DNA from: Bacilli bacterium
GTDB taxonomy: Bacteria > Bacillota_I > Bacilli_A > RFN20 > CAG-826
Reading direction: 5' to 3'
Assembly (NCBI GenBank): GCA_045113315.1
Contig: JBGUIX010000015.1
Location: 8,670 to 72,669, forward strand
DNA: 64,000 bases
A model generated the notes under the pieces. That model was not told the origin of the DNA. It ran no database searches and worked only from the letters and a program-made list of their open reading frames with translations. Of this stretch, positions 40,698-44,624 are shown piece after piece (positions within the stretch are counted from its first letter, which is position 1; each line of letters opens with the position of its first letter). A program made the position numbers and the translations under genes.

Positions 40698-41375
40698 ATG
40701 GTAAGAGCGTTATTTGAATCATCATTTTATGTTATCTACCTAGTTTTTATTTTGGGGCTAGGTATTTATTTTATAAAACAGTCACTAAATTCTAATAAAA
40801 GATACTATATCTTATTTGATTTAGCTTGCTTGATATTAGGAGTTGGTGACGCTTTTCATCTAGTTCCAAGGGCTATTGGTTTATTTAGTAAAACATTAGA
40901 TAATCCATCATCTACCTTAGCGATGTGGTTAGGCATTGGTAAATTAATTACTTCAGTTACCATGACCATATTCTATGTTTTAGTGTATCTATTTATCTTT
41001 AAACGTATGGGGATTAAAAGATATATCTATTTAGATATCATCGTTTGTGTTTTATTTATTTCTCGTATCGTTTTATTAGCCTTACCTCAAAACGATTGGA
41101 TCAATAATTCTAACGATATGTTATGGGGTATATATCGTAATATCCCATTCGTATTATTAGGTATCTTAGTAATCGTTTTATGCTTTATTTACTTTAATAA
41201 GATTAAATGTTTAAGATTATTAGGATATTTCATCATCCTTTCATTCTTATTCTATTTACCCGTTGTTATCTTTGCAGGTACGTATAGTTGGGTTGGGATG
41301 CTGATGCTACCAAAAACAATCTGTTACATGATTGTGGGTGTCATTGGATACTTAGATTACAAATCTCAGTATTGA
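40698..41375 (+). CDS. Seven-TM hypothetical membrane protein
   Basis: GDAFHLVPR, RNIPF, GMLMLPKT; about 7 TMs. Confidence 0.75.
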   Translation: MVRALFESSFYVIYLVFILGLGIYFIKQSLNSNKRYYILFDLACLILGVGDAFHLVPRAIGLFSKTLDNPSSTLAMWLGIGKLITSVTMTIFYVLVYLFIFKRMGIKRYIYLDIIVCVLFISRIVLLALPQNDWINNSNDMLWGIYRNIPFVLLGILVIVLCFIYFNKIKCLRLLGYFIILSFLFYLPVVIFAGTYSWVGMLMLPKTICYMIVGVIGYLDYKSQY

Positions 41376-41406
41376 ACTATCGCCTATAAATGGATAATAT
41401 TAATAT

Positions 41407-41598
41407 GTAGCTTAAGCTACGTATAGGCAGATTAATTAGTTGGTTCTAATCTATCTTCTAATAGCAACAAAATTGTCATATAAGCTATTAAAAGCCTCAT
41501 AGGCACCATCTCCTTTCGAGTCCTACCGTAGCTTACGATCGGTCATAGGAGATACCTATACAAGTAAGGGAGAAGCGATTCTTCCTTTTCTTTTTCTT
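41407..41598 (+). ncRNA. Putative antisense antitoxin sRNA, unit A1
   Basis: Promoter TTGAAC-17-TAATAT (41372-41400), 5' hairpin GTAGC/GCTAC, terminator AAGGGAGAA-gcga-TTCTTCCTT-TTCTTTTT; fully antisense to the peptide ORF. Confidence 0.55.
41432..41500 (-). CDS. Putative type I toxin peptide A1 (22 aa, MRLLIAYMTILLLLEDRLEPTN)
   Basis: AAAGGAG RBS paired in a stem; paralog of 44364..44432 with a deletion altering the C-terminus. Confidence 0.55.
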   Translation of the reverse strand: MRLLIAYMTILLLLEDRLEPTN

Positions 41599-41631
41599 GA
41601 AAGTTTATTTGAAGAAATCTAACATATAAAT

Positions 41632-41830
41632 GTAACAATAGTTACGTGTAGGCAGGAAATTTTGGTTAGTGATTTCCTGTTTTCTTTACTTCAATTATTA
41701 TCAATAGAAGTAGAGTCATGAAAATTATGATAATTTGCATAAGCACATCCTCCTTTCTTGATTTTTTGCTACCTAACTCAATCGGAGGAGCGCCTACACG
41801 TAACTACGAGGAAGATAAAATACCCTCCTA
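41632..41830 (+). ncRNA. Putative antisense antitoxin sRNA, unit B1
   Basis: Promoter TTGAAA-17-TAACAT (41597-41625); 15-bp end pairing TAGTTACGTGTAGGC/GCCTACACGTAACTA; 3' end uncertain. Confidence 0.5.
41666..41740 (-). CDS. Putative type I toxin peptide B1 (24 aa, MQIIIIFMTLLLLIIIEVKKTGNH)
   Basis: AAAGGAGG RBS; hydrophobic helix with basic tail. Confidence 0.65.
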   Translation of the reverse strand: MQIIIIFMTLLLLIIIEVKKTGNH

Positions 41831-41954
41831 CTATACAAATAGGGAGTGAAATAGCGAAAATGTTCAAAAATATGAGAAAAAATTTTTCTTAATCAGAGAT
41901 TAAAAATGTTTGCATATATGTTGATATATCCTGGTATTGTTCTATAATATAGAC

Positions 41955-42066
41955 ACTTCAGGGTGACGAGAATTACGTCGACTGGTGGTATAGCCCACGA
42001 GCTTTATAACTAAAGCATGATTAGGTGAAATTCCTAGGCCAACGGTACAGTCCGGATAGCAGAAGT
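41955..42066 (+). ncRNA. FMN riboswitch (RFN element)
   Basis: CTTCAGGG...GACTGGTGGTATAGCCCACGA...GATTAGGTGAAATTCCTAGGCCAACGGTACAGTCCGGAT..AGAAG; downstream hairpin covers the GGAGG RBS; precedes ribU. Confidence 0.92.
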
Positions 42067-42112
42067 TAATTGCTATATATAATCCCACCTGAAGTATGGA
42101 GGGATTTTTATT

Positions 42113-42877
42113 ATGAATGTAGAACAATTAACCGCGTTTATGTCGTGGTTTAAATGGGTGTTAATGGGCCTAATGATTGCTTTAGCAATTGGTCTATTAG
42201 TCATCTCTATTTTTAGATTTAAAAAGAGAAATGTTAATCTCGTTAAACTTATTACTGTTACCGGTATATTTGGTGCTTTAGCGACAATACTATATGTTTT
42301 AGTGCCTGATTTTGGATTAGGTTTTACCCCTCCATGGTTAAAAGTTCATCTTGATGAAATCGCTATCTTTTTAGTGGGATATATGTATGGTCCTTTATCC
42401 GCGGTAGTGGTGACTTTAATTAAAACTTTAATCAAATTACCGATGACAAGTACCGCAGGTGTGGGGGAAATTGGTGATTTCTTCTTTACTATTGTCTTTG
42501 TTTTACCAGCGGTCATTCTCTATGAGAAAAGAAGAAAATTATCATCGGTATTTATCGGTTTAGGAACTTCAACATTACTTCAATGTGTCTTTGCGATGAT
42601 CATGAATGTTTATGTTTTAATTCCATTTTATTCTGCGTTATATCATTTGCCTTTAGAAACACTTGAAGGCATGTGCAGTTCAATTATTCCAGCGATCAAA
42701 GGTGATAATTGGGTTTGGTTATACGCTTTATTTATGGTGTTACCGATGAATCTCATTAAAGATGCGATTGTTATCGTCGCGGTATTATTGCTATATAAGA
42801 GGCTCCATATTCTCATCGAAAGAATCGGAAATAACGAATATAAAAAGGAAGTCGTGGAACCACAAAAAGAAGAGTAG
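42113..42877 (+). CDS. ribU: ECF transporter S component, riboflavin (RibU)
   Basis: PWLKVHLDEI...GP, TSTAGVGEIGD, NVYVLIPFY, PMNLIK; FMN riboswitch upstream. Confidence 0.85.
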   Translation: MNVEQLTAFMSWFKWVLMGLMIALAIGLLVISIFRFKKRNVNLVKLITVTGIFGALATILYVLVPDFGLGFTPPWLKVHLDEIAIFLVGYMYGPLSAVVVTLIKTLIKLPMTSTAGVGEIGDFFFTIVFVLPAVILYEKRRKLSSVFIGLGTSTLLQCVFAMIMNVYVLIPFYSALYHLPLETLEGMCSSIIPAIKGDNWVWLYALFMVLPMNLIKDAIVIVAVLLLYKRLHILIERIGNNEYKKEVVEPQKEE

Positions 42878-42918
42878 TTCCTATTGTTTATAAATAAAAA
42901 TCGTTATATATTAATTTT

Positions 42919-42997
42919 GTAACAATAGTTACGTATAGGCAGGATTTATAACTGGGTTAGAGTTACTTCCTGTTTTTCTTTACTTCAATTGTTATTG
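42919..42997. pseudogene. Left half of TA unit B2 (3' end of toxin ORF ...ITIEVKKNRK, sRNA 5' end)
   Basis: Similar to 41632-41700; promoter TTGTTT-17-TATATT at 42884-42912. Confidence 0.6.
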
Positions 42998-43009
42998 AAA
43001 AAATCACCA

Positions 43010-44002
43010 TTATTCGTGGTGATTCTTTTCATATTTAGCTTTAGCTTTTTCCGGATTGTATTTCCTAAATGGAATATATTTAGAAACATAACATAGATAA
43101 TATTTATATTCTGGGTATTTAGAATTCGATATTCCTTCTCCAAACATGGAACTACCTAAGAATAAGATGACGATAAATAACGCTCCAAACATACTCCAGT
43201 TAAAGATGAAATATGTATTTACATTAGCGCCAAGAGTGAAGAGGAATAGGGCTAGCCAGAAACCTTGTTCACCACAATAATTAGGGTGACGAGAATATGA
43301 CCATAATCCAACTGTGTTAAAACCTCTTTTATAAGGTAATTCTAATTCATCTAATTTCTTACCTTCTTTAAGAAGTTTTTTCTTGGTTTGTTGGAATTTC
43401 CATTGTTGTTCATCAGCGATTAATTCAATTAATAAAAGAACAAAGACTAAGGAAGAGGCAATATAATCAAAGACTCCAAAGGAAACCCCGCTATCCATGA
43501 CCGCAACCATTGGGAAAGTCATTGCTAAGACTAAAGCGTTTTGGAATAAAGAGATGAAGAATAAATTGAATAATGCCCAACGGACGTAGTGACCTTTAAA
43601 CATCTTGTTTTCTCTTAAAATAACCCAGCGATAATCTTCTTCACCGGTCCAGAATTTAATCGAATAAGCCCCTTTTCTAGCGAAATTAAATGTTAATCTT
43701 ATTCCCCATAGGGTAATAAGTACCGCCATAACGATCAGGCGAGGATGAAAACCGCCTTTAACAGTAACTACCCAGGCATAAGCAATAGGTAATAATGACC
43801 ATAATTTATCCATCTGGGAATTGTTTCTAGATATTTCACCAACGATGAAACAATATAAAACACTAGATCCACAGATGATTCCTAAGATAAGTAAAGTATC
43901 TAATTGATTAGAAGATAGATTAAAGCCATTAAAGACAAATCCTAATATCGCTAAAGTGATACATGTTAAAGCGGTGATAACTGTTCCAATATACTTTTTC
44001 AT
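43010..44002 (-). CDS. DUF1295 (steroid 5-alpha-reductase-like) membrane protein
   Basis: NNSQMDKLWS, WGIRLT, EDYRW, ADEQQWKF, GLWSYSRHPNY.GE; terminator hairpin at 42997-43030. Confidence 0.88.
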   Translation of the reverse strand: MKKYIGTVITALTCITLAILGFVFNGFNLSSNQLDTLLILGIICGSSVLYCFIVGEISRNNSQMDKLWSLLPIAYAWVVTVKGGFHPRLIVMAVLITLWGIRLTFNFARKGAYSIKFWTGEEDYRWVILRENKMFKGHYVRWALFNLFFISLFQNALVLAMTFPMVAVMDSGVSFGVFDYIASSLVFVLLLIELIADEQQWKFQQTKKKLLKEGKKLDELELPYKRGFNTVGLWSYSRHPNYCGEQGFWLALFLFTLGANVNTYFIFNWSMFGALFIVILFLGSSMFGEGISNSKYPEYKYYLCYVSKYIPFRKYNPEKAKAKYEKNHHE

Positions 44003-44187
44003 AAAATAATGTCCTTACAGAAAACGTAATATTTGTATCATACATAGATAGAAATATAAAAGTATTTTGAAATATATAGATACATAATTAGGTTTTTGTC
44101 TCGTGTTTTAAAGCGAAAAAAAGCTTATAAAAACTTTATTAGCTTTTCATTGAAAAAATACGTACGTCAGTATAATATGTATTTATC

Positions 44188-44286
44188 CATAAGCACTTCC
44201 TCCTTTCTTGTTTTTTACTACTTAGCTCAATCGGAGGGGACGCCTATACAAGTAAGGGAGAAGCAATTCTTCCTTTTCTTTTTCTT
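44188..44286. pseudogene. Right half of TA unit B2 (toxin RBS/start, sRNA terminator)
   Basis: CATAAGCAC.TCCTCCTTTCTTG...CTCAATCGGAGG..CGCCTA matches 41738-41796; the ORF now reads MDKYILY-stop. Confidence 0.6.
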
Positions 44287-44319
44287 GAATGTTCTTATGA
44301 AGCAATTTAACATATTGAT

Positions 44320-44525
44320 GTAACAATAGTTACGTATAGGTAGATTAATTAGTGGTGACTAATCTATCTATCTTTTTTTAAAGTTATTATTAGCAATAAC
44401 AATAAAACCATAAAAGCTATTAAAAGCCTCATAGGCACCATCTCCTTTCGAGTCCTACCATCGCTAGCGATCGGTCACAGGAGACGCCTATACGTAACTA
44501 CGAGGAAGATAAAATATCCTCCTAC
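44320..44525 (+). ncRNA. Putative antisense antitoxin sRNA, unit A2
   Basis: Promoter TTGAAT-17-TAACAT (44285-44313); end pairing TAGTTACGTATAGG/CCTATACGTAACTA; 3' end uncertain. Confidence 0.5.
44364..44432 (-). CDS. Putative type I toxin peptide A2 (22 aa, MRLLIAFMVLLLLLIITLKKDR)
   Basis: AAAGGAG RBS with anti-SD stem; Ibs-like hydrophobic helix with basic tail. Confidence 0.65.
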   Translation of the reverse strand: MRLLIAFMVLLLLLIITLKKDR

Positions 44526-44624
44526 TATACAAATAGGGGGTGGAAATTCCAAAATGTTCAAAAAAATGAGACAAATTTTTTATTAATCTATGATTAAAAA
44601 TATTTATGTTATAATAGGATAGTT

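What the first reader, a model, noticed from the sequence alone, without database searches (positions are those of the whole stretch)
41372..44600. Unannotated family of Ibs/Sib-like type I toxin-antitoxin units (four copies)
Seen: minus-strand 22-24-aa hydrophobic peptides (MRLLIAFMVLLLLLIITLKKDR, MQIIIIFMTLLLLIIIEVKKTGNH, MRLLIAYMTILLLLEDRLEPTN), each with a strong AAAGGAG SD that can pair with an upstream anti-SD. Each unit has a plus-strand promoter (TTGNNN-17-TANNNT) starting at a GTARC-N4-GYTAC hairpin, so an RNA of about 190 nt would cover the whole ORF antisense. Unit ends pair over up to 15 bp with a compensatory change (GTGTAGG/CCTACAC vs GTATAGG/CCTATAC). A shared tail holds a candidate minus-strand TATAGT promoter. 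Known: this layout parallels E. coli ibs/Sib, and 5'-3' locked mRNAs occur in hok and aapA. Inference: a type I TA family that I do not recognise from Bacilli.
Basis: partly seen in the sequence, partly recalled or inferred. Interest (0 to 1): 0.75.

Follow-up and report, generated by a model that had tools for sequence, protein, structure and literature searches.

The report
New type I toxin-antitoxin family
Short repeated DNA units in an uncultured rumen bacterium each encode a tiny membrane peptide on a tightly folded, translation-locked messenger, opposed by an RNA that covers it: the hallmarks of a toxin-antitoxin pair of a family not described before.

Summary
The window (a 1.32-Mb rumen Bacilli genome assembled from a metagenome) carries two intact units (B1 41631-41829, A2 44319-44523, minus strand), one decayed unit (A1) and two remnants, not four equal copies.

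Twenty-one intact units from the same genus share five features:
- a 21-24-aa hydrophobic ORF with a basic tail. Variation has a period of three: codon position 2 has entropy 0.40, against 1.27 and 1.36 at positions 1 and 3, and is 81% T.
- a 14-bp helix joining the 5' and 3' ends of the peptide-sense RNA. Nine of its 14 pairs show compensatory changes and 99.7% of cells are paired.
- an adjacent anti-SD that pairs with the ribosome-binding site (SD), with pairing probability at least 0.5 in 21 of 21 units.
- a 5' leader hairpin.
- a plus-strand TAnnnT -10 box exactly 6 nt before the terminal hairpin, in 30 of 31 units.

G-U outnumbers A-C 57 to 13 in the helices, so the fold is selected on the peptide-sense strand.

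Nothing matches in Rfam, Pfam or NCBIfam. A covariance model finds the family in 9 of 12 genomes of the genus and almost nowhere else.

The best reading is a new type I toxin-antitoxin family. Its antisense RNA spans the whole ORF, as in Ibs/Sib, and its mRNA is locked end to end, as in hok and AapA. Transcripts and toxicity are not shown. TATAGT is probably not the toxin -10 box.

The parts
41372..41400 (+). Promoter of the plus-strand (antisense) RNA of unit A1: TTGAAC-17-TAATAT, ending 6 nt before the hairpin
41407..41597 (+). A1 antisense RNA, about 190 nt: 5'-terminal hairpin 41407-41420, body, then intrinsic terminator 41566-41587 with a U-run. Candidate orphan antitoxin RNA. It is identical over 46 nt to the complement of the A2 start/SD region.
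   Evidence: D3; z -4.21
41432..41500 (-). Decayed ORF of unit A1 (MRLLIAYMTILLLLEDRLEPTN). About 19 nt are deleted relative to A2, the KK tail is lost, there is no upstream promoter motif, and the 5' arm is cut to 7-8 bp.
41597..41625 (+). Promoter of the B1 antisense RNA: TTGAAA-17-TAACAT
41631..41829 (-). Unit B1, predicted toxin mRNA. Leader hairpin 41808-41829; 5' arm of the closing helix 41793-41806; anti-SD 41784-41793; SD 41748-41756; ORF 41666-41740; post-stop hairpin ~41654-41679; 3' arm 41639-41653; terminal hairpin 41632-41645.
   Evidence: (MFE -56.7, z -4.99)
41666..41740 (-). B1 peptide ORF, 24 aa: MQIIIIFMTLLLLIIIEVKKTGNH
41632..41830 (+). B1 antisense RNA. The start is predicted at the hairpin. 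The 3' end is unknown because no intrinsic terminator was found in the tail. It is complementary to the whole ORF, the SD and both arms.
41830..41867 (-). Tail motif upstream of the B1 mRNA: TTGAAC-N19-CTATTTGTATAGT. Candidate toxin promoter or regulatory site. Three protein-coding genes elsewhere in the genome share it.
42884..43024 (+). Remnant B2a: promoter TTGTTT-17-TATATT, 5' hairpin and about 80 nt of a B-type unit. It then runs into the bidirectional terminator 43002-43024 of the DUF1295 gene. The rest was lost by a deletion relative to G008.
44150..44285 (+). Remnant Y (B2b): its own promoter TTGAAA-17-TAATAT (44150-44178), about 65 nt complementary to the start/SD/anti-SD region of B-type mRNAs, and terminator 44254-44275. 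The toxin ORF is destroyed. The element is conserved in G008. Candidate short orphan antitoxin RNA.
   Evidence: (D6, D7)
44285..44313 (+). Promoter of the A2 antisense RNA: TTGAAT-17-TAACAT
44319..44523 (-). Unit A2, predicted toxin mRNA. Leader hairpin 44501-44523; 5' arm 44487-44500; anti-SD 44479-44486; SD 44442-44448; ORF 44364-44432; 3' arm 44327-44340; terminal hairpin 44320-44333.
   Evidence: (MFE -63.1, z -5.22)
44364..44432 (-). A2 peptide ORF, 22 aa: MRLLIAFMVLLLLLIITLKKDR
44524..44561 (-). Tail motif upstream of the A2 mRNA: TTGAAC-N19-CTATTTGTATAGT. The simple scan also reads it as TTGGAA-17-TATAGT.

Best explanation
The units are a previously undescribed family of type I toxin-antitoxin loci.

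The minus strand gives an mRNA of about 200 nt for a 21-24-residue membrane peptide, the presumed toxin. This mRNA is predicted to be untranslatable as made. A 5' leader hairpin is followed by a 14-17-bp helix joining the 5' and 3' ends. Stacked on that helix is an anti-SD:SD helix, and the start codon often sits in a further hairpin.

The plus strand has a near-consensus promoter placed so that transcription starts at the terminal hairpin. This gives an antisense RNA complementary to the whole ORF, the SD and both arms, the presumed antitoxin. Pairing of the two RNAs would block translation and create a long duplex for RNase III, which the genome encodes.

Toxin-dead copies (A1, Y, B2a) keep a plus-strand promoter and an intrinsic terminator. 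They probably persist as orphan antitoxin RNAs acting in trans on the intact copies.

Shown here: the repeats, the coding-type conservation of the ORF, covariation of the helices with a bias to the peptide-sense strand, and conservation of the antisense promoter's position.

Inferred: both transcripts, their ends, translation, toxicity, neutralisation, and how the lock opens. By analogy with hok and AapA, the lock may open by 3' trimming or by a switch to the terminal hairpin.
For: 1. Repeats. Families of 96-121 nt at 86-87% identity lie in the window. Further copies lie on C10 and C2.

2. Coding signal. Over 15 ORFs, entropy is 0.40 at codon position 2 against 1.27 and 1.36 at positions 1 and 3, and position 2 is 81% T. 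ATG and GGAG are invariant in the alignment of 11 units; in the 15- and 21-unit alignments ATG stays invariant and the SD is invariant or nearly so. The orthologous pair G000_C10/G008_C21 is identical at 53 of 54 ORF bases, with one synonymous change, but at only 27 of 47 in the interior of the 5' UTR.

3. Closing helix. Over 21 units, 9 of 14 pairs change on both sides and 99.7% of cells are paired, against 34-39% when the partner column is slid. None of 500 shuffles reaches the observed score. G004 has five consecutive compensated positions and G007 has three. Duplex energy is -19 to -30 kcal/mol in 21 of 21 intact units, against -10 to -15.5 for shuffles.

4. Terminal hairpin. Three of 5 pairs are compensated and 100% of cells are paired. 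The post-stop hairpin has 3 of 5 pairs compensated.

5. Strand. G-U against A-C cells count 10:1, 35:6 and 12:6 in the three helices, so they favour the peptide-sense strand. The leader hairpin folds in 19 of 19 units and is more stable on that strand in 17 of 19.

6. SD sequestration. The probability that the SD is paired is at least 0.5 in 21 of 21 units and at least 0.9 in 15 of 21. Fold z-scores run from -2.0 to -8.7.

7. Antisense promoter. TAnnnT lies exactly 6 nt before the hairpin in 30 of 31 units, and 17 of these are exact TATAAT. TTGnnn at a 16-18-nt spacing accompanies it in 22 of 31. The genome background is 2.6% for the -10 box alone and 0.13% for both.

8. Plus-strand intrinsic terminators at 41566-41587 and 44254-44275.

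9. Behaviour typical of the class. There are tandem arrays (four units in G005) and decayed copies. Loci are syntenic between species but their unit types are swapped.

10. RNase III is present.

11. The peptides fit the published profile of membrane-associated type I toxins: under 60 aa, hydrophobic helix, cationic C-terminus. IbsC is 19 aa and stays toxic when cut to 15 (PMC8309996, passages read). SD/anti-SD pairing, 5' stem-loops and 5'-3' interactions are the published key determinants of type I toxin mRNAs (PMC8594479, passages read).
Against: - No transcript of either strand was seen. The contigs of three runs filed as RNA libraries cover the neighbouring genes but not the units. Such contigs cannot show absence.
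- Toxicity and neutralisation are untested.
- The toxin promoter is undefined. TATAGT abuts the leader hairpin, and the alternative motif has an unusual 19-nt spacer.
- No plus-strand terminator was found behind the intact units, so the length of their antisense RNA is unknown.
- Complementary strands share most helices, so the assignment to the peptide-sense strand rests on the G-U/A-C bias alone.
- The 21 units come from one genus and are related, so shuffle controls overstate significance.
- My script chose each 5' arm partly by its complementarity, which is mildly circular for the percentage of paired cells, though not for the compensatory changes.
- In 5 of the 10 pairs compared, the ORF was not clearly better conserved than the UTR. 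For two of these five my script seems to have picked different in-frame starts.
- Three of the 12 genomes of the genus gave no match.
Confidence: 0.7

Rival explanations
1. The units encode a small, non-toxic membrane protein, for example a subunit or regulator of a membrane complex. Its synthesis is tightly limited by mRNA folding and an antisense RNA, with no toxin-antitoxin logic.
For: Everything shown here concerns expression control and coding, not toxicity. Small hydrophobic proteins with regulatory roles are common in Gram-positive bacteria (PMC10730256, search listing and abstract only).
Against: - The units are multi-copy, form tandem arrays and are swapped between syntenic loci, and their ORFs decay often while the antisense part is kept. 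This is typical of addiction-like modules, not of a housekeeping subunit.
- No conserved partner gene lies next to the units. Their neighbours differ between loci.
- A double lock on translation plus a full-length antisense RNA is more control than a harmless peptide would seem to need.
- Three of the 12 genomes of the genus gave no match.
Confidence: 0.17
2. The functional product is the plus-strand small RNA, a regulatory RNA with trans targets. The minus-strand ORF and its fold are then by-products.
For: - The plus-strand promoter is the best-conserved signal: 30 of 31 units, 17 with exact TATAAT.
- Toxin-dead copies keep the promoter and a terminator.
- The terminal hairpin contains only Watson-Crick pairs, 105 of 105 cells, so it fits both strands.
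Against: - Conservation with a period of three, with T at codon position 2, cannot arise from selection on an RNA of the opposite strand.
- The SD and ATG are invariant or nearly so in the alignments.
- G-U exceeds A-C 57:13 in the helices, so selection acts on the minus-strand fold.
- The dead copies are best complementary to the translation start regions of the intact toxins (D3, D6, D7).
Confidence: 0.06
3. The units are a miniature inverted-repeat mobile element or another selfish repeat. Its terminal inverted repeats would be bound by a transposase, and the ORF and promoters would be incidental.
For: The units have 14-15-bp perfect terminal inverted repeats, several dispersed copies, and deletion derivatives.
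Against: - Copies sit at the same loci in two species (C10 with G008:C21, C2 with G008:C9, C15 with G008:C1) and are only 70-87% alike. That is not a recent burst of transposition.
- The arms change by compensatory substitutions and tolerate G-U but not A-C. This points to selection on RNA pairing, not on a protein-binding sequence.
- The ORF, SD and promoter are conserved.
- No hits in the viral, phage or plasmid collections.
Confidence: 0.03

Closest known systems
Ibs/Sib of Escherichia coli (type I TA)
   Same: - The toxin is a very short hydrophobic peptide. IbsC is 19 aa (PMC8309996).
- The antisense RNA spans the entire ORF, a layout that the T1TAdb paper attributes to Ibs/Sib alone among the families it describes (PMC8594479).
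- The loci are multi-copy intergenic repeats.
   Different: - There is no sequence or structure homology. No Rfam match, Sib included, at E up to 1, and no Pfam or NCBIfam toxin match at E up to 10.
- The host is a rumen Bacilli lineage, not a Gram-negative bacterium.
- The peptides here carry a basic KK-type tail, whereas IbsC lacks positive C-terminal residues.
- The mRNA here is closed by a 14-bp 5'-3' helix.
hok/Sok (plasmid R1) and AapA/IsoA (Helicobacter pylori)
   Same: The toxin mRNA is locked by a 5'-3' long-distance interaction and by SD sequestration, and structures are embedded in the mRNA. The sources are the title of Franch et al. 1997 in the reference list of PMC8594479, the abstract of PMC6733600, and my own knowledge of the fold-back inhibition element. 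Here the terminal hairpin competes with the closing helix for the same 3' arm, and all three strands covary.
   Different: - In those families the antisense RNA is short and targets the 5' part of the mRNA. Here it would cover the whole mRNA core.
- Their toxins are 30-50 aa and unrelated.
- Their hosts are Proteobacteria and Campylobacterota.
- Activating 3' processing is only inferred here.
Gram-positive type I families: Fst/RNAII, TxpA/RatA, BsrG/SR4, YonT, SprA1, SprG
   Same: - The host phylum is the same.
- The toxins are small hydrophobic peptides with a charged C-terminus.
- 5' stem-loops and anti-SD elements figure among the RNAMotif descriptors that the T1TAdb authors wrote for 16 type I families, not for these families in particular.
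   Different: - In all of those families the antisense RNA lies on the 3' side and overlaps the mRNA only partly (PMC8594479).
- No Pfam, NCBIfam or Rfam model matches.
- The peptides here are shorter, at 21-24 aa.

Membership tests
Type I toxin-antitoxin systems (class) | Small hydrophobic peptide (under 60 aa) with a transmembrane helix and a cationic C-terminus | tested here: met
   The ORFs are 21-24 aa in 20 of the 21 intact units. One unit in G005 reads 33 aa. All have a hydrophobic core followed by K/R residues. The criterion comes from PMC8309996.
Type I toxin-antitoxin systems (class) | The ORF is a real coding sequence | tested here: met
   Conservation has a period of three (entropy 0.40 against 1.27 and 1.36). 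ATG is invariant and the SD invariant or nearly so. ORF length varies in whole codons.
Type I toxin-antitoxin systems (class) | The toxin mRNA has cis elements that sequester the SD (anti-SD, 5'-3' interaction, 5' stem-loop) | tested here: met
   These rest on covariation and predicted folds, not on structure probing.
Type I toxin-antitoxin systems (class) | A cis-encoded antisense RNA gene overlaps the toxin mRNA | tested here: inconclusive
   The promoter position is conserved in 30 of 31 units, and terminators lie behind the toxin-dead units. No transcript was seen, because the RNA-library contigs do not cover the units.
Type I toxin-antitoxin systems (class) | The peptide is toxic when expressed and the RNA neutralises it | not testable with these tools
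   This needs induction and rescue experiments.
Ibs/Sib family | The antitoxin RNA matches the Rfam Sib model, or the peptide matches an Ibs toxin model | tested here: not met
   No Rfam match on the units at E up to 1. No Pfam family at E up to 10. Whether Pfam holds an Ibs model is recalled, not checked.
Ibs/Sib family | The antisense RNA spans the whole ORF | tested here: met
   This follows from the position of the plus-strand promoter and terminators relative to the ORF. It is a likeness of layout only.
Fst/Ldr and other Gram-positive toxin families | Peptide homology, and a convergent antisense RNA that overlaps the 3' end | tested here: not met
   No Pfam or NCBIfam toxin hit. The single weak hit is to a sortase-anchor tail model, NF033846, at 16.5 bits against a cut-off of 23.5. 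The layout also differs.
MITE / selfish repeat | Near-identical dispersed copies with insertion polymorphism, and arms conserved as sequence | tested here: not met
   Copies are 70-87% alike and sit at syntenic loci. The arms covary and tolerate G-U. Target-site duplications were not examined.

The most novel reading that the evidence does not exclude
The units are one arm of a genus-specific, co-regulated set of toxin genes. Their mRNAs share a special promoter or operator (TTGAAC-N19-CTATTTGT, followed by AGGAGG) with a MazF-like toxin gene, an ATPase-less C39-peptidase membrane protein and a 61-aa membrane peptide. A single signal would then switch on several self-poisoning or defence genes at once. 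Toxin-dead units are kept by selection as trans-acting orphan antitoxin RNAs that cross-protect between loci: the A-type orphan lies beside the B-type toxin, and the B-type orphan beside the A-type toxin. The three-way covarying terminal hairpin and closing helix would act as the switch that unlocks the mRNA.
Probability: 0.2. Interest if true: 0.7.

Novelty: new member of a known kind. Interest (0 to 1): 0.5.

Why it matters
[quoted passage not shown] Known families come almost entirely from cultured Proteobacteria and a few Firmicutes.

This locus gives a family from uncultured rumen Bacilli with reduced genomes of 1.0-1.6 Mb. There are enough natural variants (21 intact units) to define its mRNA fold by covariation before any experiment.

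It combines two designs so far described separately. One is an antisense RNA that spans the whole ORF, described only for Ibs/Sib in Gram-negative bacteria. The other is an mRNA locked by a 5'-3' helix, as in hok and AapA.

The toxin-dead copies that keep a promoter and a terminator offer a clean natural test of the orphan-antitoxin idea.

The promoter motif shared with a MazF-like toxin gene hints at common regulation of type I and type II toxins.

In practical terms, the covariance model could annotate these genes in rumen metagenome-assembled genomes, where they are currently missed.

Tried and rejected
- Expression. One search for sequencing runs and one laying of four runs. X5 is an RNA library; X1 and X2 are filed as metatranscriptomic but are probably DNA. 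Their contigs cover the ECF transporter gene, the DUF1295 gene and the downstream gene, but no unit. All are contigs at low depth, so this says nothing either way. X6 is of unknown type and is a related strain. I built a 131-position model running from the SD to the 3' end instead.\n- Column-wise covariation of the anti-SD:SD helix was not attempted, because its register differs between the A and B unit types. I used per-sequence pairing probabilities instead.\n- In the pairwise comparison of ORF and UTR, 5 of 10 pairs were uninformative. Two (A2/C1a and mg55/mg56) probably because my script picked different in-frame ATGs, three because they were too diverged.\n- TATAGT as the toxin -10 box was considered and judged unlikely.\n- I tried to place the tail motif as a sigma-54, sigma-D, ECF or MerR-type promoter. 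These were comparisons from memory only, and none fitted convincingly.\n- The weak Rfam GcvB hit at 42931-43030 (29.6 bits, gathering score 42) is explained by the U-rich stretch and the terminator of remnant B2a.\n- The Paenibacillus hit (L051) and the metagenome hit L059 to the 20-nt pattern have no unit around them.\n- Searches of the large protein collections were not run. The peptides are below the 30-aa limit of two of the tools, and gene callers rarely report ORFs this short.\n- No structure or complex prediction was run, because it would not bear on the claim.\n- Literature. Searches for 'type I toxin-antitoxin' with 'T1TAdb', with 'Erysipelotrich', and for 'type I toxin'/'antisense RNA'/'entire ORF'/'Gram-positive' found no description of this family. 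Supplementary tables of Fozo et al. 2010 and of T1TAdb were not seen and could list similar candidate peptides.

Full report
**What is in the window**

The region 41372-44605 holds unit-derived repeats in two clusters.

- Cluster 1 is unit A1 (41407-41561), a 70-nt linker, unit B1 (41632-41806) and a 105-nt tail.
- Cluster 2 is remnant B2a (42919-~43000), an unrelated DUF1295 gene on the minus strand (43010-44002; Pfam 3.3e-39), remnant Y (~44186-44250), the same linker, unit A2 (44320-44500) and the same tail.
- Between the clusters lie an FMN riboswitch (41950-42071; 77.8 bits) and an ECF-transporter S-component gene.
- The repeat families are 96-121 nt long at 86-87% identity. The unit ends are perfect inverted repeats of 14-15 nt.
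- The window is part of a 1.32-Mb, 33% G+C genome in 15 contigs. Related records are titled as uncultured rumen 'Bacilli bacterium' or 'Erysipelotrichaceae bacterium' metagenome-assembled genomes.

All the named features are there: three minus-strand peptides, AAAGGAG(G) 7-9 nt before each ATG, four in-register plus-strand promoters ending 6 nt before a GTARC-N4-GYTAC hairpin, the 15-bp end pairing with the G-C/A-U compensation, and TATAGT in the tail.

The count of 'four copies' needs correcting. B1 and A2 are intact. A1 lacks about 19 nt of its hydrophobic core and has no promoter motif upstream. What looks like one unit split by a 1.15-kb insertion is two remnants of different units. In the sister species G008 the syntenic locus has an intact unit with its own tail, an HigA-like gene, the DUF1295 gene, and then the same Y remnant. 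G000 has therefore suffered a deletion. Elsewhere in the genome there is a third intact unit (C10:37757-38061) and two remnants on C2.

**Relatives**

- BLASTN found units in 7 of 61 related genomes, G000 included.
- A 20-nt pattern found 13 stretches in the species-representative genomes. Twelve are in five rumen Bacilli assemblies and one is a chance hit in Paenibacillus. The same pattern found 10 stretches in metagenome contigs, one of them a chance hit.
- A covariance model of the SD-to-3'-end part (R1: 131 positions, 15 sequences) matched as follows:
  - 9 of 12 genomes of the genus;
  - 5 of 151 genomes sampled from the family: G000, three of the same genus, and one marginal hit in another genus at E = 0.009;
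  - 2 of 151 genomes sampled from the order: G000 and the same marginal hit.
- Nothing was found in viral contigs, plasmids or phages.
- G005 carries four units in tandem.
- Units at syntenic loci differ in type between G000 and G008, and a related strain shows further structural variants (run X6).

**The ORF is a coding sequence**

Across 15 ORFs, entropy at codon position 2 is 0.40 against 1.27 and 1.36 at positions 1 and 3. Position 2 is T in 81% of cells, the signature of selection for hydrophobic residues. One ORF, mg56, was read from an in-frame ATG two codons early.

ATG and GGAG are invariant in the alignment of 11 units. In the alignments of 15 and 21 units the ATG stays invariant and the SD is invariant or nearly so.

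The peptides run M-(E/R/Q/N/D)-x-hydrophobic(13-15)-(K/N)-K-x(0-4). They are 21-24 aa in 20 of 21 intact units and 33 aa in one.

Between the orthologues G000_C10 and G008_C21 the first 18 codons differ at one synonymous site (53 of 54 bases identical), while the interior of the 5' UTR is identical at 27 of 47. Four more pairs show the same direction. Five of the ten pairs do not; for two of those five my script seems to have picked different in-frame starts.

**The peptide-sense RNA has a conserved fold**

Single-sequence folds of B1 and A2 give -56.7 and -63.1 kcal/mol, with z-scores of -4.99 and -5.22. All 21 intact units give z-scores of -2.0 to -8.7.

The common architecture is: a leader hairpin, a 14-17-bp helix joining the two ends, an anti-SD:SD helix stacked on it, a hairpin over the start codon, a hairpin over the stop codon, and a 5-bp terminal hairpin.

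Counts on an alignment of 21 units:

| Helix | Pairs changed on both sides | Cells paired |
|---|---|---|
| Closing helix | 9 of 14 | 99.7% (34-39% with slid partners) |
| Post-stop hairpin | 3 of 5 | 91.4% |
| Terminal hairpin | 3 of 5 | 100% |

None of 500 shuffles reached the observed covariation score.

G004 has five consecutive positions of the closing helix replaced and compensated. G007 has three. The G005 units have GUAGC/GCUAC in place of GUAAC/GUUAC.

The 3' arm can pair either with the 5' arm or with the last five bases of the RNA, and all three strands change together. The closing helix and the terminal hairpin are therefore alternative structures, and both are kept.

Duplex energies between the 5' region and the 3' tail are -19 to -30 kcal/mol in 21 of 21 intact units, against -10 to -15.5 for shuffles. 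The one remnant tested equals its control.

The SD is predicted to be paired with probability at least 0.5 in 21 of 21 units and at least 0.9 in 15 of 21, mostly with the bases just 3' of the 5' arm.

**Which strand**

Complementary strands share Watson-Crick helices. A G-U pair, however, becomes an A-C mismatch on the other strand. In the closing helix, the start hairpin and the post-stop hairpin, G-U against A-C cells number 10:1, 35:6 and 12:6. The fold is therefore selected on the peptide-sense strand.

The leader hairpin folds in 19 of 19 units with enough upstream sequence (-6.2 to -11.4 kcal/mol). It is more stable on that strand in 17 of 19.

The terminal hairpin is purely Watson-Crick (105 of 105 cells). 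That fits a role on both strands: the 3' end of the mRNA and the exact 5' end of the antisense RNA.

**The antisense RNA**

I counted promoter boxes among 40 distinct matches to the hairpin pattern in all loci held. Thirty-one are units or remnants in antisense orientation. Nine were dropped: six are the palindromic hairpin read backwards, and three have no unit around them.

- 30 of 31 have TAnnnT exactly 6 nt upstream, and 17 of these are exact TATAAT.
- 22 of 31 also have TTGnnn 16-18 nt further up.
- The background in this genome is 2.6% for the -10 box alone and 0.13% for both.
- The sequences around these boxes are otherwise unrelated between loci.

Transcription would start at the hairpin and run through the complement of the stop, the whole ORF, the start, the SD, the anti-SD and the 5' arm.

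Behind A1 and Y there is a good intrinsic terminator: a 9-bp stem, a GCGA or GCAA loop and a U-run. The A1 RNA of 191 nt folds with z = -4.21. Behind the intact units B1 and A2 I found no terminator, so the 3' ends of their antisense RNAs are open.

The linker terminator occupies the position of the leader hairpin of the intact units. A plus-strand U-run has replaced the toxin promoter region there.

**Toxin-dead copies**

A1 in G000 has a deletion inside its ORF. Its counterpart in G008 has lost its start codon and is deleted at its 3' end. Both have lost the toxin, in different ways, and both keep the plus-strand promoter and terminator.

Y has its own promoter (TTGAAA-17-TAATAT) placed just before the complement of the start and SD region. 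It is conserved in both species.

A1 is identical over 46 nt to the complement of the A2 translation start region (D3). Y is 89-93% identical to that of B1 (D6 and D7). I infer that these copies persist as orphan antitoxin RNAs. This is inference only.

**The toxin promoter**

Upstream of the intact units in G000, G008 and G005 lies TTGA(A/G)(C/A)-N19-C(C)TATTT, then 4-7 nt, then AGGAGG. The simple scan reads the A2 tail as TTGGAA-17-TATAGT. However, AGGAGG follows directly after TATAGT and forms the 5' arm of the covarying leader hairpin. A start site 7 nt after TATAGT would therefore destroy that hairpin.

I think the start lies upstream of AGGAGG and that TATAGT is not the -10 box. Only 5'-end mapping can settle this.

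The same motif precedes three protein-coding genes in this genome. There AGGAGG is at the right distance to serve as their SD:
- a 61-aa membrane protein;
- a PemK/MazF-like protein (PF02452, 1.7e-7);
- a C39-peptidase membrane protein (PF03412, 7.5e-19).

The last of these appears to be the subject of an earlier finding of this scan (e1-1513801; matched by description and a similar length, coordinates not compared).

**Mechanism proposed**

Shown here: the sequence, the coding signature, the covariation and the promoter conservation.

Inferred:
- The mRNA is made in a translation-inert form and is stable, because both its ends are structured.
- The antisense RNA, made from a stronger promoter, pairs with it over about 175 nt.
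- RNase III, which the genome encodes (226 bits, above the cut-off), destroys the duplex.
- If the antisense RNA falls, an opened form of the mRNA is translated, and the peptide inserts into the membrane and depolarises it. Such a form might arise by 3' trimming or by the switch to the terminal hairpin.

The last steps rest on analogy with hok/Sok and AapA/IsoA (my own knowledge; PMC6733600 abstract; PMC8594479 passages) and on the published profile of membrane-associated type I toxins (PMC8309996 passages).

**Comparison with known families**

No Rfam family matches the units at E up to 1. No Pfam family matches the peptides at E up to 10. The only NCBIfam hit is a sub-threshold match to a sortase-anchor tail.

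According to the T1TAdb paper, the Gram-positive families it lists have an antisense RNA on the 3' side that overlaps the mRNA only partly, and only Ibs/Sib has an antisense RNA spanning the whole ORF.

The family therefore works like a type I system, looks like Ibs/Sib in layout and like hok/AapA in its mRNA lock, and is a member of none of them. Three literature searches found no description of it. Supplementary tables of candidate toxins were not seen.

**A possible wider family**

The marginal hit in another genus (G072) encodes a 26-aa peptide of the same style. It has its own 5'-3' closing helix, an adjacent anti-SD, and a tandemly repeated flank. This suggests that the architecture reaches beyond what the model can detect.

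**Verdict**

This is a real, conserved, unannotated gene family, best read as a new type I toxin-antitoxin family (confidence 0.7). It is a new family of a known class, and no experiment has yet been done on it. Interest is moderate, raised by the unusually complete comparative picture and by the orphan-antitoxin and shared-promoter leads.

Noticed in passing
window 41830-41867 and 44524-44561 (minus strand); G000 C10:37803; C6:173796, C6:203578, C6:227853: The bipartite motif TTGAAC-N19-CTATTTGT(G)ATA..AGGAGG occurs six times in the genome. Three copies precede toxin units. The other three precede a 61-aa membrane protein, a PemK/MazF-like protein and an ATPase-less peptidase-C39 membrane protein. 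It may mark a common regulon of toxin-like genes.
   Followed up: partly
window 41372-41597, 42884-43024 and 44150-44285 (plus strand): Toxin-dead units keep a plus-strand promoter and an intrinsic terminator. A1 and Y are kept in this state in the sister species G008 too. They are candidate orphan antitoxin RNAs. The A-type orphan lies beside the B-type toxin, and the B-type orphan beside the A-type toxin.
   Followed up: partly
L068 (G072:C8) about 1450-1652: In another genus, a 26-aa peptide (METVVILLLLVFLVKAIKKDDNDEDR) has its own 5'-3' closing helix and anti-SD, and its flanks are tandemly repeated. It may be a distant relative of the family.
   Followed up: partly
L062 (metagenome contig) and L071 (G007:C15): Other small hydrophobic ORFs with an SD lie next to unit remnants: MEMTVMVMMLVILIVYLAKRR and MESVLILLILAVLIYLLRGKR. 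They may belong to a second toxin-like family at the same loci.
   Followed up: no
window 41950-42071 (+) and 42113-42877 (+): An FMN riboswitch (Rfam RF00050, 77.8 bits) precedes an ECF-transporter S-component gene, probably a riboflavin importer. The pair sits between the two unit clusters.
   Followed up: partly
L035 about 1960-2160 and L036 1-170 (G008:C1): In G008 an HigA-like XRE-family gene lies between an intact unit and the DUF1295 gene. G000 has lost it, together with the 3' part of that unit. The HigA-like assignment is from reading the translation, not from a family search.
   Followed up: no
5' UTR of most A-type and divergent units, e.g. window 44466-44475: A palindromic GACCGATCGG block is conserved in the otherwise variable 5' UTR of 13 of 21 units. 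It could be a loop-loop contact site or a nuclease site.
   Followed up: no
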